From the NCBI GenBank assembly GCA_000004985.1, contig GG739204.1: a DNA stretch of 3,888 nt; one strand, given 5' to 3'. The notes under the pieces are model-generated. The model was not told the DNA's origin and did not search any database. It saw nothing but the letters and a program-made list of their open reading frames with translations. Each line of letters starts with the position of its first letter. Positions within the stretch are counted from its first letter, which is position 1. Source of the DNA: Naegleria gruberi (taxonomy: Eukaryota). Made by a program: the position numbers and the translations under genes. Shown here in pieces: positions 1 through 3,415 of the stretch.

Positions 1-117
1 ATGCTTTAATATCAATTTCACATTCATAATGAAAGTAACATTTTACCCTTAGACCCACAGTCATTTAAAAGTTTAGAAAATCAAAATATCGGCCTTACCA
101 TTATTCCAACTGACCAC

Positions 118-717
118 TTGATTCGTATTGTGAAACCAGTACAGTGTAAAATCTGTGAGAGCACAAATATACATTTAAGAGAAATTACTAAAAATGGATT
201 TGAACAGATATTCCGTTTTACTTGTTTGGCTTGTAATACGGTATTTGTTTTTAGAACATGTCCAAGGAATCTTAAATTGAATAGACATATTATTCAATCA
301 TTTGAACTCTCGAACTCTACCTATGAATCATTTAAAACATTTACAACCCTTGTCGGATTGCCAATAATTAATAAGAAATCATATTATCAAGCAACAAACA
401 AGTTATGGAGCAGTAGTAGTCAAGTATTAAATCAAGAAATGGACAAGGAATTGGAAAAGATTGCAAATCAGAAAATGAAACAAGTGCTTGGTTCTTTAAT
501 TTCTGCATTTGAACTGGGAAGAGAATGTTGTAGAGTTGCGAGGAACTATTCAACGTTAGTATTTCGACAAATTGTAAACAATAAAATTGAGTTGATAAAT
601 AATTTTATGCTCAAAAAAATTAAGTATATTGAAATGGTTCAAACACCAAGCAAGGCGAATAAAGTCAATGACCTAAAAGGCAGCATTTCTGAGCAACATA
701 CCTCATCCTTTGGATGA
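118..717 (+). CDS. Zinc-ribbon protein resembling the N-terminus of an IS1595/Merlin (IS1 InsA-like) transposase. Possibly the 5' part of a disrupted transposase gene; there is no ATG start (TTG in the track).
   Basis: Frame 1 is open from nt 10 (a TAA sits at 7-9) to the TGA at 715-717. That is 236 codons in 32% GC DNA, where the expected random ORF is about 13 codons. Residues C10-x2-C13-x22-C36-x2-C39 (nt 145..234) read CKICESTNIHLREITKNGFEQIFRFTCLACNTVF. This matches the C-x2-C...NG...R(F/Y)xC-x2-C...F pattern of the Zn_Tnp_IS1595 / IS1 InsA zinc ribbon. A possible HTH-like stretch follows (TLVGLPIINKKSYYQATNKLW). There is no in-frame ATG before codon about 107. The ribbon lies about 10 residues after the TTG at 118, as in bacterial IS1595 transposases, but no SD motif is seen. 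Confidence 0.45.
   Translation: MIRIVKPVQCKICESTNIHLREITKNGFEQIFRFTCLACNTVFVFRTCPRNLKLNRHIIQSFELSNSTYESFKTFTTLVGLPIINKKSYYQATNKLWSSSSQVLNQEMDKELEKIANQKMKQVLGSLISAFELGRECCRVARNYSTLVFRQIVNNKIELINNFMLKKIKYIEMVQTPSKANKVNDLKGSISEQHTSSFG
145..234 (+). other. C4 zinc-ribbon motif (C-x2-C-x22-C-x2-C) within ORF1
   Basis: Direct translation gives TGT 145-147, TGT 154-156, TGT 223-225, TGT 232-234. A KNG motif lies between the Cys pairs and RFTC immediately precedes the second pair. Confidence 0.6.
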
Positions 718-787
718 AGAATATGTTGAGTGAGCTTTTACCCATTGGTTTATCAACGATTGTTTTATTGTTTCTTTTGGAGAAATA

Positions 788-1080
788 TTTTAAAACCACA
801 AAATAATAAAATAATAAATTAAGACAAATGGATTAAAAGTTCAAGGATTGAGACACCATTTGGTGAATCAACCTTGGAACCTGCTTTAAAGGATATAAAT
901 CTTTATTTAGCAGGTCCCTAGAAATTAAAGTGTTTTTAAAACCACAAAATAATAAAATGATAAATTAAGACAAATGGATTAAAAGCTCAAGGATTGAGAC
1001 ACCATTTGGTGAATCAACCTTGGAACCTGCTTTAAAAGGATATAAATCTTTATTTAGCAGGTCCCTAGAAATTAAAGTCT
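788..1080. repeat. Tandem direct duplication, two units of about 145 and 148 bp (788..932 and 933..1080), roughly 97% identical
   Basis: Read directly. ttttaaaaccacaaaataataaaat[a/g]ataaattaagacaaatggattaaaag[t/c]tcaaggattgagacaccatttggtgaatcaaccttggaacctgctttaaa[-/a]ggatataaatctttatttagcaggtccctagaaattaaagt[g/c] occurs twice head-to-tail. There are only 4 differences. All of them fall outside the two internal inverted repeats. Confidence 0.9.
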
Positions 1081-1388
1081 CAAAATTATGAAAAACTTAT
1101 CGATAGTTTTGAAGCTAAAGATAAGAAAAAACATAGAGTATGTGAATAAATTGTAAAACCTGTTCATAAAATCACCATTAGTATATAAAAATCTATATGA
1201 ATTTTCTGAAACAAATGGAATGAAAAATAAAATGATTCGAATCTATTAGAAACTGTCATCCAAAAAATAAGTTAGTGAATAAATGTAAAAATTGCACATC
1301 TTGAATGTACACAGCTGCACTCTGAAATTAGCCCACTTACTGGATGCTAATGAGCGAAAAAGGCTGAAAAATTGTAAATACTAATTAA

Positions 1389-1405
1389 GGGTGGGTATGG
1401 GTGGG
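1389..1405 (+). other. Canonical G-quadruplex-forming motif G3-N1-G3-N3-G3-N1-G3 (GGGTGGGTATGGGTGGG)
   Basis: Four GGG runs at 1389-1391, 1393-1395, 1399-1401 and 1403-1405 with loops T, TAT, T. The surrounding DNA is only about 32% GC, so the motif stands out. It lies about 145 bp upstream of the ORF2 ATG. Function is not inferable from sequence. Confidence 0.5.
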
Positions 1406-1493
1406 ACTTTGCCTTAATGATGACATGATGTTGAGACTATTTTTTGAGCATAATTTTTAAAATAATATTTTAATAATTTTGTATAAAAACACT

Positions 1494-1524
1494 AGTTCTT
1501 CACCATGTTCAGAACTCCCAGTTC
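1494..1524. promoter_or_regulatory. Cluster of AGTTC/GAACT half-sites in alternating orientation (AGTTC..GTTCaGAAC T ccc AGTTC), 25 bp upstream of the ORF2 start. Candidate protein-binding site or small hairpin.
   Basis: Read directly. agttc 1494-1498; palindrome gttc-a-gaac 1507-1515; gaact 1512-1516 and its reverse complement agttc 1520-1524, which form the hairpin gaact-ccc-agttc. A regulatory role is inference only. Confidence 0.25.
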
Positions 1525-1548
1525 CGGCATTGATTTACTCCTTCATTC

Positions 1549-2649
1549 ATGATGCAATATTTTTGGATATCAGTTGATGCAAGATATTCATCTAGGAGAA
1601 ATGTTTACGAATGTACTCTTGTGGTATTCGAAACAAAGGCAAAAAAAACAATTGAACGATCACACGTTATCAAGAAAAGAGCATCTAATAGAAAAAGTGC
1701 CTTACAATGGTTTATGGGAGCCTCTAAATTAATGGAGCCAGAAGCATGTCGTTTAGCAATTACATCTTTGAAACACAAGTCATTTCCAGTAATGGGTTAT
1801 GGTATTTTACATTTCAAAATTGGCTCTTTTGTTCATGACAAAGACTCAACTGTGGCAGCAGTCATCAAAAAATTAGAACCAACAGCATTAGAAAAGTTAG
1901 ATCCAAATCATGTAATCAAAAATCTGAGCAAGGAAGTAGAAGAAAAAGCACCCCGTATTGCCAGTATTATTGTATCATCCTTTAGGAAAGCTCTAAAATT
2001 AGCCAACACCACCACTAATTCAAATGAGAAACTCCAAGCATTATTGAAAGCTTATCCACAACATTTACAAAATAACCATTCTCTGTGCGATTCAGGTTGT
2101 CCACACACAATTAAACCAGAAAAATTGATCACTAAAGAGGAAGCACAAGTTGTTAAAGAAATATTTGACAAACGAATCAAATATAGTCACAAATTTTGTG
2201 ATATTGCATGCAATAGCCAAAACAATGAGTCCATACATAGTACTATTTGTCATACAACACCAAAGACATTAGATTTCAGTCGAAATTATTGTGGAAGAGC
2301 TGATCTGGCAATAGGTGAACGATTGCTTGGAAAATTTGCACAATTAAGAAAAATTCAAAGATTTATTGGTAGTCTCTTCGTGATTCCAAAAGAGCAGGCC
2401 ATCAAGTTAGATACTCAATATCATCAGGATAAAATAAGGAAACAGTCTAAAGCTTATAAGGAAAGAAGAGTGGAGCTTCGGAAAACAAAACTTAAGGTAA
2501 AAGAATCTCCACAGCCAAAGGGAACAATTGGAAGTTGCACATGTTCGAAGGGTTCGACATGTACAAAAGCTTGTCCATGCAGAAAAGCCGGGAAATCATG
2601 TACTTCCAAATGCTCTTGTTCTCTTACCAAATGTCAAACAAAAGTTTGA
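1549..2649 (+). CDS. 366-aa Lys-rich protein with a degenerate IS1595/Merlin-like DDE transposase-core region at its N-terminus, a central Cys/His cluster, a basic NLS-like linker and a C-terminal CXC-type cysteine module. Candidate inactivated or domesticated transposase.
   Basis: Frame 1 is open from 1534 to the TGA at 2647-2649, 372 codons, which is highly non-random in AT-rich DNA. From memory of the DDE_Tnp_IS1595 consensus: LVVFETK resembles vEiDEty, with the first D replaced by F27. FVHDKDS resembles i(T/H)Dgw (D97). LDPNH resembles tVNH. IIVSSFRKALKL resembles NtIEsfWsllKR, with the E position occupied by S. The spacing from first D to second D is about 70 residues. The same HD(K/N) motif also resembles the Tc1/mariner HDNA second-D motif, so the family call is tentative. 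C-terminus: K/R-rich KIRKQSKAYKERRVELRKTKLKVK, then CTCSKGSTCTKACPCRKAGKSCTSKCSC..C. Confidence 0.55.
   Translation: MMQYFWISVDARYSSRRNVYECTLVVFETKAKKTIERSHVIKKRASNRKSALQWFMGASKLMEPEACRLAITSLKHKSFPVMGYGILHFKIGSFVHDKDSTVAAVIKKLEPTALEKLDPNHVIKNLSKEVEEKAPRIASIIVSSFRKALKLANTTTNSNEKLQALLKAYPQHLQNNHSLCDSGCPHTIKPEKLITKEEAQVVKEIFDKRIKYSHKFCDIACNSQNNESIHSTICHTTPKTLDFSRNYCGRADLAIGERLLGKFAQLRKIQRFIGSLFVIPKEQAIKLDTQYHQDKIRKQSKAYKERRVELRKTKLKVKESPQPKGTIGSCTCSKGSTCTKACPCRKAGKSCTSKCSCSLTKCQTKV
2536..2634 (+). other. C-terminal 9-Cys module C-x-C-x5-C-x3-C-x-C-x6-C-x3-C-x-C-x4-C, resembling a tesmin/TSO1 (CRC/CXC) domain
   Basis: Translated directly (TGC 2536-2538 ... TGT 2632-2634). The Cys spacing closely follows the CXC consensus C-x-C-x4-C-x3-YC-x-C-x6-C-x3-C-x-C-x2-C, except that Ala occupies the Tyr position and two loops differ by 1-2 residues. 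A metallothionein-like C-x-C cluster is an alternative reading. Confidence 0.45.
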
Positions 2650-2950
2650 CTTGTAATAATAGATGATTTTTTATTAAAATTGCTAAATTTGTAATTTTGC
2701 CAATAATAGATATTCGAATATTTGTAAACCAACATTTGCACTTCCAATTAAAATAGGTAGACCGCCACCTTAAGGGGTAAATAAATGTAATCTGAACAGA
2801 TAAATGAATTTTCGAGGAATTATGATGAAAAGGATGTAGTGAGAATGGGATTTGATAAAGAGAAGATAAGTAAAAAACATGATGAGGAGTATGATGAAGA
2901 ATAATAGGGAAATGATTTTTCTAACATAGATAAATATAATTTTTGTTCAC

Positions 2951-2974
2951 ATATATATATATATATATATATAT
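2951..2974. repeat. (AT)12 dinucleotide microsatellite
   Basis: Read directly: atatatatatatatatatatatat at 2951-2974. Confidence 0.95.
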
Positions 2975-3133
2975 TCACCCAATAATTTATCAAAAAAATA
3001 AAATACAAAAAATCAATTCTCATATAACAACAAAATAAATTGTGAATATATACAAAAATTAAATTCAAACTCGAATTTAGATCGAGAAACACACTAAACC
3101 ACCAAACGGTACTACTAAGATAAGAATTACAAT

Positions 3134-3415
3134 ATGATGCATGCAATGTATGAGTGCACAATAGATAACCTCGTCAAGCTGTTGGCCATTACATTATCTG
3201 TATGTTTATTGATAGTCATGGTTATTTTCTCTGTCTACCAGTTTAAACTCAAAGGAATGGAGTTTGTTAGTTCTCTCATAGTGGGTGCTCATGTTTCCAT
3301 TCAGTTTTGGATGGATACTCATGAAGAAAGTTATAGTTCAGAAGTTTCTAAAACGGTTGAAAAATACTGCGCAGAAACCAACCATCATCATGATCAGATA
3401 TTAAAATCCATCTAA
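3134..3415 (+). CDS. Hypothetical 93-aa protein with one predicted transmembrane helix (LVKLLAITLSVCLLIVMVIFSVY) and a His-rich C-terminus (NHHHD)
   Basis: ATG ATG start at 3134 with A at -3 (acaatATGa). A TATATA element sits at about 3047-3054, roughly 80 bp upstream. A 23-residue hydrophobic stretch is present. The ORF length is only marginally significant in AT-rich DNA. There is no recognisable homology. Confidence 0.25.
   Translation: MMHAMYECTIDNLVKLLAITLSVCLLIVMVIFSVYQFKLKGMEFVSSLIVGAHVSIQFWMDTHEESYSSEVSKTVEKYCAETNHHHDQILKSI

What the first reader, a model, noticed from the sequence alone, without database searches (positions are those of the whole stretch)
1621..2649. Transposase-like core with substituted catalytic residues fused to a tesmin/TSO1-type CXC cysteine module: a candidate domesticated transposase or novel DNA-binding factor
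IS1595/Merlin transposases are normally about 300 aa and end soon after the ...FRYN motif. Here the DDE-like region (residues about 25-151) is followed by more than 200 extra residues. These comprise a Cys/His cluster (C180-x3-C-P-H186 ... C217-x3-C221 ... H230-x3-C234-H235 ... C248, nt 2086..2292), a basic NLS-like linker, and a terminal 9-Cys array whose spacing matches the CXC (CRC) DNA-binding domain of tesmin/LIN54/TSO1. The positions aligned to catalytic D1 and E appear to be F and S. An intact 372-codon frame despite apparently dead catalysis is the signature of a transposase recruited for DNA binding. A CXC fusion to this superfamily is not something I know to be described.
Basis: partly seen in the sequence, partly recalled or inferred. 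Interest (0 to 1): 0.65.

Follow-up and report, generated by a model that had tools for sequence, protein, structure and literature searches.

The report
Broken Mutator-like transposase gene with CXC tail
This stretch of Naegleria gruberi DNA is the rear two-thirds of a jumping-gene enzyme (a Mutator-like transposase) whose catalytic residues are intact, which ends in a small zinc-binding CXC module shared by many relatives, and which in this copy is cut off from its front part, so it is an ordinary decaying transposon copy with one mildly unusual domain.

Summary

- **Family:** the protein is a Mutator-like transposase (Pfam PF20700), not IS1595/Merlin.
- **Catalysis:** the DDE triad is intact (D10, D97, E227), and a (C/D)x2H motif follows D97. 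The AlphaFold model (pLDDT 81) is an RNase H-like fold nearest to the Hermes and ISCth4 transposases.
- **"Extra" residues:** most of the supposed 200 extra residues are the helical insertion and the E-bearing helix of the catalytic core.
- **Missing front:** the N-terminal zinc finger lies upstream at nt 10-554. It is separated from this ORF by about 0.9 kb of stop-filled DNA with a 146-bp tandem repeat. A probable 2-bp frameshift near nt 1568 and an in-frame stop at nt 7-9 add to the damage.
- **CXC tail (nt 2536-2634):** the window's own tail is below the Pfam threshold (14.8 bits). A profile of 19 homologous tails hits LIN54 CXC at E=1.8e-9, and 16 of the 19 tails hit Pfam TCR. About a third of relatives with a long C-terminus carry it, so it is a family feature.
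- **Copy number:** the closest relative is a full-length 649-aa N. gruberi paralogue at 68% identity.
- **Annotation:** the public gene model splices the CXC tail out.

Domestication is not supported.

The parts
7..9 (+). In-frame TAA immediately before the first residues homologous to the paralogue. P0002 has Ser at this position.
   Evidence: The contig starts at nt 1, so only two codons lie upstream. Reading this as a nonsense mutation is an inference.
10..554 (+). N-terminal part of the transposase, frame 1, including a C-x2-C...C-x2-C zinc finger at nt 145-234.
   Evidence: Pfam PF20700 positions 19-135 of 357, 37.4 bits. tblastn of P0002 aa 83-240 maps to nt 10-480 at 49% identity. The frame stays open to nt 717.
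555..1495 (+). Interruption between the two gene halves. It is either a long intron (GTTAGT...AG) or inserted DNA, and has stops in all frames.
   Evidence: The boundaries are my best fit to P0002 and are inferred. Frame 1 stays open from 555 to 717, with a chance probability of about 0.006-0.009. The exon may therefore once have run further.
788..1078 (.). 146-bp tandem repeat, 2.0 copies, 97% match, inside the interruption.
605..1453 (.). Segment bounded by a perfect 14-nt inverted repeat (605-618 and 1440-1453). It is a possible MITE-like insertion.
   Evidence: Removing it does not restore an open frame by my reading, so this remains unproven.
1497..1572 (+). Frame-3 coding remnant '...SELPVPALIYSFIHDAIFLDIS'. 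It is the segment that precedes the first catalytic strand in relatives.
   Evidence: It matches P0043 aa 16-32 (59% over 17 aa, E=0.02 in the small database) and P0002 'AIIYLYVCGFAIPLDIS'. Both matches are colinear with the start of the frame-1 homology. The profile score for this piece alone is not significant.
1564..1573 (+). Probable 2-bp deletion (TTGGATAT^CAGTTGAT) that shifts frame 3 to frame 1.
   Evidence: Inferred from overlapping LDIS (frame 3) and ISVDARY (frame 1) readings compared with P0002 'PLDISVDARY'. A sequencing error cannot be excluded.
1567..2493 (+). RNase H-like DDE catalytic core with an alpha-helical insertion. Key residues are D10 (nt 1576-1578), D97 (1837-1839), the D118-x2-H121 motif (1900-1911), H172/H177/C180/C184 (2062-2100), E227 (2227-2229) and K239.
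2389..2535 (+). Basic, helical linker (aa 281-329, 'QDKIRKQSKAYKERRVELRK...'). It is conserved as a basic stretch in relatives.
   Evidence: Helices 281-299 and 301-315 in the model. Alignment A1.
2536..2634 (+). Single CXC-type nine-cysteine module (aa 330-362). The stop codon is at 2647-2649.
   Evidence: 31 of 39 residues identical to P0002, with all 9 Cys kept. Pfam TCR gives 14.8 bits, E=0.036, below the 23.5-bit cut-off. The family profile hits LIN54 5fd3 at E=1.8e-9.
2497..3241 (+). Intron of the public gene model (P0001). It removes the CXC tail and joins to nt 3242-3415.
   Evidence: The P0001 sequence compared with the window. Conservation of the read-through in P0002 argues that this model is wrong at its 3' end.

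Best explanation
The window is a whole 3.9-kb Naegleria gruberi contig. It carries one degraded copy of the transposase gene of a Mutator-like (Pfam PF20700-type) cut-and-paste DNA transposon.

**Protein layout.** By homology with the 649-aa paralogue NAEGRDRAFT_46350, the full protein has four parts:
- an N-terminal CxxC...CxxC zinc finger;
- an RNase H-like DDE core (D10, D97, E227 in ORF numbering) with the (C/D)x2H motif and a helical insertion;
- a basic helical linker;
- a single C-terminal nine-Cys CXC module.

**Inferred mechanism.**
- The zinc finger and the CXC/basic tail bind DNA at the transposon ends or the target.
- The DDE site cuts and joins DNA, as shown experimentally for the MULE Muta1 and for hAT elements, with a hairpin on the flanking DNA.
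- The CXC tail takes the place that SWIM or other C-terminal zinc modules hold in other Mutator-type transposases.

**State of this copy.** It is separated from the N-terminal third by about 0.9 kb of non-coding DNA and a probable 2-bp frameshift. An in-frame stop lies at the contig start. The copy is therefore most likely non-functional, or at best N-terminally truncated.

**Shown versus inferred.** Family membership, the intact triad, the fold, conservation of the CXC tail and the split gene are shown. DNA binding by the CXC tail, the hairpin mechanism and pseudogene status are inferred.
For: - **Source:** the contig is from N. gruberi and the whole contig is the window.
- **Pfam:** PF20700 hits both halves, at positions 19-135 and 153-351 of the model. 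The joined halves score 59.3 bits against a 26.5-bit cut-off.
- **Paralogue:** P0002 is full length, 68% identical over 363 aa including the tail, and 49% identical over the N-terminal part.
- **Conserved residues:** D10, D97, D99, H121, H172, E227 and K239 are invariant. Column 118 is D or C in 15 of 16 sequences. This matches the MULE/hAT motif described in PMC5499845.
- **CXC tail in relatives:** 17 representative relatives carry it. About 15 of 44 relatives with a long C-terminus carry it.
- **CXC tail identity:** Pfam TCR passes its threshold in P0031 and P0061. The tail profile hits both CXC units of LIN54.
- **Frameshift:** the frame-3 remnant is colinear with P0043 and P0002.
Against: - No terminal inverted repeats or target-site duplication could be seen, because the contig cuts the element at its 5' end.
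- Copy number in the genome could not be measured.
- ORF2 (371 codons) and ORF1 (236 codons) are both far longer than chance allows in 30% GC DNA. The decay is therefore recent, or the gene may be intact if the gap is an intron and the frameshift is a sequencing error.
- The window's own tail is below the Pfam TCR threshold.
- The tail model was low-confidence (pLDDT 62) and gave no structural match.
- The position after H172 is Trp in 5 of 16 relatives and may correspond to the functional W of MULE/hAT. It is Leu in the window and in P0002.
Confidence: 0.8

Rival explanations
1. Intact, possibly active transposase gene. On this reading the 0.9-kb gap is a genuine long intron (GTTAGT at 555, AG at 1494-1495), the frameshift near 1568 is a sequencing error on a low-coverage contig, and the 5' exon lies beyond the contig end.
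For: - Both halves are open far beyond chance.
- Candidate GT..AG sites give a junction that aligns well with P0002.
- The catalytic residues and all nine Cys are intact.
Against: - It needs three separate excuses: the intron, the frameshift and the TAA at nt 7-9.
- The intron would be about 941 nt and would contain a tandem repeat and an inverted repeat. From memory, this is much longer than typical Naegleria introns.
- Frame 1 stays open for 54 codons past the proposed donor (P about 0.006-0.009). That fits an interrupted exon better than an intron.
Confidence: 0.12
2. Domesticated transposase or new DNA-binding factor. On this reading, ORF2 is translated from the ATG at 1549 or 1552 and yields a protein that lacks the N-terminal zinc finger and acts through its CXC tail, for example as a regulator.
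For: - The ORF is long and is annotated as a gene.
- Apparent copy number among annotated proteins is low, with only P0002 close.
- No transposon ends are visible in the window.
Against: - Its premise of dead catalysis is false.
- No orthologues were found in other species at recognisable similarity.
- The homologous N-terminal coding remnant lies just upstream, in another frame and across a gap. That marks a broken full-length gene, not a remodelled one.
- The CXC tail is inherited from the transposon family, not a new fusion.
Confidence: 0.06
3. The Cys array is metallothionein-like low complexity or a chance feature, and the core is an IS1595/Merlin transposase.
For: - The window's own tail is below the TCR cut-off (14.8 against 23.5 bits).
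- One of the 19 homologous tails gave a weak metallothionein hit (E=0.019).
Against: - Nine aligned Cys and a trailing C-x-N are conserved in 19 tails.
- The tail profile hits LIN54 at E=1.8e-9.
- TCR matches 16 of 19 tails, best E=4.2e-8.
- No IS1595 hit appeared at E<=10, while PF20700 is above its threshold.
Confidence: 0.02

Closest known systems
Pfam PF20700 'Mutator-like transposase' proteins; closest is N. gruberi NAEGRDRAFT_46350 (XP_002681476.1, 649 aa)
   Same: - Colinear homology over the zinc finger, the DDE core, the basic linker and the CXC tail. Identity is 68% over the C-terminal part and 49% over the N-terminal part.
- The same invariant residues.
   Different: The window copy is split, frameshifted and truncated by the contig end. 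The paralogue is annotated as one continuous 649-aa protein on a 707-kb scaffold.
Mutator/MULE superfamily transposases (MuDR MURA, Muta1, Phantom) and the bacterial IS256/ISCth4 Mutator family
   Same: - A DDE triad on an RNase H-like fold.
- A (C/D)x2H motif 21 aa after the second D. The range reported is 15-45 aa (PMC5499845).
- A helical insertion before the E.
- An N-terminal zinc finger.
- A weak PF00872 hit in relative P0045.
   Different: - The zinc modules listed for MULEs in the 2019 survey are PHD, FLYWCH, SWIM, RING and C2H2 (PMC6446971). A CXC tail and Heterolobosean hosts are not listed.
- The conserved W upstream of E is not conserved here, and is Leu in the window.
- TIR and TSD features could not be examined.
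Tesmin/TSO1/LIN54 CXC (CRC) domain, Pfam PF03638; structure 5FD3
   Same: - Nine Cys with nearly the same spacing, and a trailing C-x-N.
- The family tail profile aligns to both LIN54 CXC units (E=1.8e-9).
- TCR passes its threshold in relatives P0031 and P0061.
   Different: - A single unit rather than a tandem pair with a conserved spacer.
- The residue before the fourth Cys is Tyr in both LIN54 units in the alignment. By my recollection it contacts DNA. It is Ala here and mostly Arg or Lys in relatives.
- The loop lengths x5 and x4 replace x4 and x2.
- The window's own score is below the threshold.
MSL2 CXC domain (Pfam PF16682) and the EZH2 pre-SET CXC
   Same: A single nine-Cys unit next to basic residues. 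Two of the homologous tails hit PF16682 (best E=4.3e-5).
   Different: There is no RING or SET context. The window's tail itself gave no PF16682 hit.

Membership tests
IS1595 / Merlin (ISXO2-like) transposases | Match to the IS1595-type DDE transposase profile | tested here: not met
   No such Pfam family was listed at E<=10 for ORF1, ORF2, P0001 or the joined protein. PF20700 matched instead.
Mutator-like transposase (Pfam PF20700) | Profile match above the curated cut-off of 26.5 bits | tested here: met
   ORF1 scores 37.4 bits, P0001 29.2 bits and the joined halves 59.3 bits. The matches cover model positions 19-135 and 153-351.
Mutator/MULE superfamily | DDE triad, with D on beta1, D just after beta4 and E on a helix of an RNase H-like fold | tested here: met
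Mutator/MULE superfamily | (C/D)x2H motif 15-45 aa after the second D | tested here: met
   D118-P-N-H121 lies 21 aa after D97. The column is D or C in 15 of 16 sequences and the H is invariant. The motif definition comes from PMC5499845.
Mutator/MULE superfamily | Conserved W upstream of the catalytic E | tested here: inconclusive
   The only candidate column is the one after invariant H172. It is W in 5 of 16 sequences, and L in the window and in P0002. Equivalence to the Hermes/Muta1 W was not established.
Mutator/MULE superfamily | Terminal inverted repeats and an 8-10 bp target-site duplication | not testable with these tools
   The contig ends inside the gene's 5' part. The N. gruberi genome is not in any searchable DNA collection. 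Two metagenome scans found nothing.
Tesmin/TSO1-type CXC domain (PF03638) | Profile match above the curated cut-off of 23.5 bits | tested here: not met
   The window tail scores 13.1-14.8 bits, E=0.036-0.12. Relatives P0031 (26.6 bits) and P0061 (29.5 bits) pass. The family profile hits LIN54 at E=1.8e-9. Homology to CXC is therefore supported at family level only.
Tesmin/TSO1-type CXC domain (PF03638) | Nine cysteines in the C-x-C-x4-C-x3-(Y)C-x-C-x6-C-x3-C-x-C-x2-C pattern | tested here: met
   All nine Cys are present and aligned in 19 tails. Two loops are longer in the window, x5 and x4.
Tesmin/TSO1-type CXC domain (PF03638) | Tandem pair of CXC units, with Tyr before the fourth Cys (DNA-contacting in LIN54 by my recollection) | tested here: not met
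   The window has a single unit, with Ala at that position. Relatives mostly have Arg or Lys there.
Domesticated transposase | Orthologues kept in related species, loss of transposon ends, and an intact frame under purifying selection | tested here: inconclusive
   The only close relative in 5.8 billion clusters is one N. gruberi paralogue. The gene is split and frameshifted. dN/dS and synteny could not be computed because no DNA of relatives was available.

The most novel reading that the evidence does not exclude
Mutator-like transposases with a C-terminal single CXC (Zn3Cys9-type) module would form a so far undescribed clade. It would be spread through protists, including Heterolobosea, Amoebozoa and uncultured eukaryotes in metagenomes. 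In this clade the CXC tail would be the end-recognition or target-recognition module. It would be interchangeable with CCHC knuckles and combinable with captured Ulp1 protease or exonuclease domains. Such elements could also be a reservoir related to the CXC DNA-binding domains of cellular factors such as LIN54/tesmin and MSL2.
Probability: 0.3. Interest if true: 0.45.

Novelty: new variant of a known kind. Interest (0 to 1): 0.3.

Why it matters
- **For this locus, little.** It is a decaying transposon copy. The one practical point is that the public gene model is probably wrong, because it drops the conserved CXC tail and misses the upstream half.
- **For transposon biology, a modest point.** A tesmin-type CXC module is a recurrent C-terminal domain of one Mutator-like transposase family. 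None of the MULE surveys I could read lists it. It offers a testable candidate for how these elements recognise their ends or targets.
- **For CXC domains.** It is another example of this zinc module moving between mobile elements and host chromatin factors.

Tried and rejected
- **IS1595/Merlin assignment:** rejected. There is no profile hit, and PF20700 matches instead.
- **Metallothionein or low-complexity reading of the tail:** rejected.
- **AFDB fold search:** the library was not available.
- **DNA of the paralogue P0002, wanted for dN/dS, introns and TIRs:** not on record.
- **Metagenome scans with ORF2 and with ORF2 plus P0002:** both found no relatives. The 16-sequence alignment was too divergent to scan with.
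- **Word-indexed protein searches:** they returned almost only the protein itself and P0002. The exhaustive HMMER search was what revealed the family.
- **Contigs carrying P0036:** these were the same short sequence from several samples and gave no information on transposon ends.
- **Excising the segment bounded by the 14-nt inverted repeat (605-1453), or a TA-flanked version of it:** by my reading of the sequence, neither restores an open frame. The MITE-insertion idea remains unproven.
- **Other features in the window:** no tRNA or Rfam matches and no Pfam hits for the downstream ORFs.
- **Literature:** searches for PF20700, tesmin plus transposase, and CXC plus transposase found no description of this architecture.
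Full report
**What the window is.** The 3888-base window is an entire small contig of Naegleria gruberi. Its annotated 372-aa 'predicted protein' (P0001) is recorded on one contig of 3888 bases. The first ATG is at 1549, giving 366 aa.

**Checking the observation.**
C180 falls at nt 2086 and C248 at nt 2290.
- The terminal array holds 9 Cys in 33 residues (aa 330-362, nt 2536-2634). The other 329 residues hold 8. The binomial probability is 7e-8.
- So the physical observation of a Cys/His-rich region and a terminal nine-Cys array stands.
- The statements about catalytic residues and about 'extra' residues do not stand, as shown below.

**Which transposase family.**
- Pfam gives no IS1595-type hit at E<=10.
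- Instead, the upstream ORF (nt 118-717) matches PF20700 'Mutator-like transposase' at model positions 19-135 (37.4 bits). P0001 matches model positions 153-351 (29.2 bits). The two halves joined score 59.3 bits against a cut-off of 26.5.
- An exhaustive HMMER search of 1.84 billion representatives found 102 relatives.
- The best is P0002, N. gruberi NAEGRDRAFT_46350 (XP_002681476.1), 649 aa, on a 707-kb scaffold.
- tblastn of P0002 against the window aligns its aa 83-240 to nt 10-480 (49% identity) and its aa 281-643 to nt 1567-2634 (68% identity). Both alignments are in frame 1.
The N-terminal third, with a CxxC...CxxC zinc finger at nt 145-234, lies upstream in the same window.

**Catalytic residues.**
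- In an alignment with 15 relatives, the invariant columns are D10, E63, H96, D97, D99, H121, H172, E227 and K239. All are present in the window.
- Column 118 is D or C in 15 of 16 sequences, and it is followed by the invariant H121.
- This is the (C/D)x2H motif that MULE and hAT transposases carry 15-45 residues after the second D (PMC5499845). Here it lies 21 residues after D97.
- An AlphaFold2 model built on this alignment has mean pLDDT 80.9 and pTM 0.69. It shows beta1 (2-13), beta2, beta3, alpha1 (59-75), beta4 (85-96), then helices up to residue 315.
- D10 sits on beta1, D97 sits just after beta4, and E227 sits in a helix. This is the canonical RNase H arrangement.
- The claim of D-to-F and E-to-S substitutions came from aligning to the wrong superfamily.
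They belong to the helical insertion of the core. C217, C221, H230, C234, H235 and C248 are specific to the Naegleria pair.

**The CXC tail.**
- The window's own tail scores 13-15 bits on Pfam TCR (PF03638), below the 23.5-bit cut-off. Taken alone it is inconclusive.
- The same tail occurs in 17 representative relatives. It is present in about 15 of the 44 relatives that have a long enough C-terminus.
- Carriers include N. gruberi P0002 and P0027, a Stenamoeba transcript (P0012) and many metagenomic proteins.
- Aligned, the 19 tails keep eight Cys columns strictly invariant, with the third Cys present in all but split by the alignment. Nearly all (at least 90%) also keep a trailing C-x-N.
- Sixteen of the 19 hit TCR, best E=4.2e-8. 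Two hit MSL2-CXC.
- P0031 (26.6 bits) and P0061 (29.5 bits) pass the curated threshold as whole proteins.
- A profile of the tails finds exactly one solved structure, LIN54 (5FD3), at E=1.8e-9. It aligns to both of LIN54's CXC units.
- Between the window and P0002, the tail is 31/39 identical with all nine Cys kept.
- The tail is therefore a genuine CXC-type module. It is a family feature, not a new fusion at this locus.
- It differs from tesmin/LIN54 in three ways. It is a single unit. Two of its loops are longer. It lacks the Tyr before the fourth Cys, having Ala in the window and mostly Arg or Lys in relatives.
- A structure prediction of the tail alone was poor (pLDDT 62) and gave no fold match.

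**State of the gene in this window.**
- Between nt ~554 and ~1496 every frame has stops.
- The gap contains a 146-bp repeat in two tandem copies (788-1078). It also holds a perfect 14-nt inverted repeat at 605-618 and 1440-1453.
- Just upstream of the ORF's ATG, frame 3 reads '...SELPVPALIYSFIHDAIFLDIS'. This matches P0043 'LPQEIAILIYSFIKDYISLDV' (59% over 17 aa; sequence). It also matches P0002 'NEVVAIIYLYVCGFAIPLDIS'.
- In both relatives this is exactly the segment that precedes the D1 strand.
- The frame-3 'LDIS' and the frame-1 'ISVDARY' overlap on the same bases. The simplest reading is a 2-bp loss in TTGGAT(AT)ATCAG near nt 1568.
- The profile score of this short piece alone is not significant. 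The inference rests on its colinearity.
- A GTTAGT at 555 and an AG at 1494-1495 would give a 941-nt intron. The resulting junction aligns well with P0002.
- However, frame 1 stays open for 54 codons past that donor (P about 0.006-0.009). That fits an interrupted exon at least as well.
- An in-frame TAA at nt 7-9 sits where P0002 has Ser.
- Taken together, the copy is most likely a pseudogene. An intact gene would need a long intron, a sequencing error and an upstream exon beyond the contig. I give that reading about 0.12.

**The public gene model.** P0001 starts at the ATG at 1552. It then splices nt 2497-3241 out, which removes the CXC tail and adds 56 residues from a downstream ORF that has no family match. 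Conservation of the read-through in the paralogue argues that the model is wrong at its 3' end. The model also misses the upstream half.

**Domestication.**
- The premise of dead catalysis is false.
- A search with P0002 of 5.8 billion clusters returned only P0001 as a close relative.
- After P0002, the exhaustive search drops to about 30% identity.
- So there is no sign of conserved orthologues. There is also no sign of many near-identical copies, at least among annotated proteins.
- I could not obtain DNA of any relative for dN/dS or synteny.
- Domestication is not excluded but has nothing positive in its favour. I give it about 0.06.

**How it most likely works (inferred).**
- In an intact family member, the N-terminal zinc finger and the basic-linker-plus-CXC tail would bind DNA.
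- The DDE site would perform cut-and-paste with a flanking-DNA hairpin, as shown for the MULE Muta1 (PMC5499845).
- The CXC tail occupies the place of the C-terminal zinc modules of other Mutator-type transposases.
- Relatives swap it for a CCHC knuckle (P0005, P0009, P0046). Others add captured domains: Ulp1 protease in P0031 and an RNase T-like exonuclease in P0051. This modular behaviour is typical of transposases.

**Comparison with the literature.**
- The 2019 survey of MULE diversity lists PHD, FLYWCH, SWIM, RING and C2H2 zinc fingers. It does not mention a CXC tail or Heterolobosean hosts (PMC6446971).
- Full-text searches for PF20700, tesmin plus transposase, and CXC domain plus transposase found nothing relevant.
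- The library is incomplete, and Repbase reports are not covered. 'Undescribed' is therefore provisional.

**Verdict.**
- The locus is an ordinary, probably dead, copy of a Mutator-like transposon gene.
- The only feature of wider interest is the recurrent CXC tail in this transposase family. I rate it a new variant of a known kind.
- Interest is 0.3.

Noticed in passing
window 2497-3415: The public gene model (P0001) splices out nt 2497-3241 and so drops the conserved CXC tail. It joins to a 93-aa hydrophobic ORF (3134-3415) that has no family match. The 3' end of the model is probably wrong.
   Followed up: partly
window 788-1078: A 146-bp unit in two tandem copies (97% match) lies in the gap between the two halves of the transposase gene.
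   Followed up: partly
window 605-618 and 1440-1453: A perfect 14-nt inverted repeat (TTATGCTCAAAAAA / TTTTTTGAGCATAA) brackets most of the gap. It could mark a MITE-like insertion, but removing it does not restore the frame.
   Followed up: partly
window 2951-2976: An (AT)n microsatellite lies downstream of the gene.
   Followed up: no
P0031 (metagenomic relative, 653 aa): Its architecture is a Mutator-like core, then a CXC module (TCR 26.6 bits), then a Ulp1 Peptidase_C48 domain (22.3 bits, above its cut-off). From memory, this recalls the Ulp1 capture known in plant MULEs.
   Followed up: no
P0051 (relative, 487 aa, on a 9.9-kb NCBI contig): It carries two CXC units followed by an RNase_T-type exonuclease domain (41.4 bits).
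   Followed up: no
P0005, P0009, P0046 (relatives): They carry a CCHC zinc knuckle where the CXC tail sits in other family members. The C-terminal zinc module therefore seems interchangeable.
   Followed up: no
window 2065-2067 (aa 173): The residue after invariant H172 is Trp in 5 of 16 relatives, but Leu in the window and its paralogue. If it corresponds to the functional Trp of MULE/hAT transposases, the Naegleria pair has lost it.
   Followed up: partly
window 555-717: Frame 1 stays open for 54 codons beyond the last residue homologous to the paralogue (chance about 0.006-0.009), with no similarity to any relative.
   Followed up: partly
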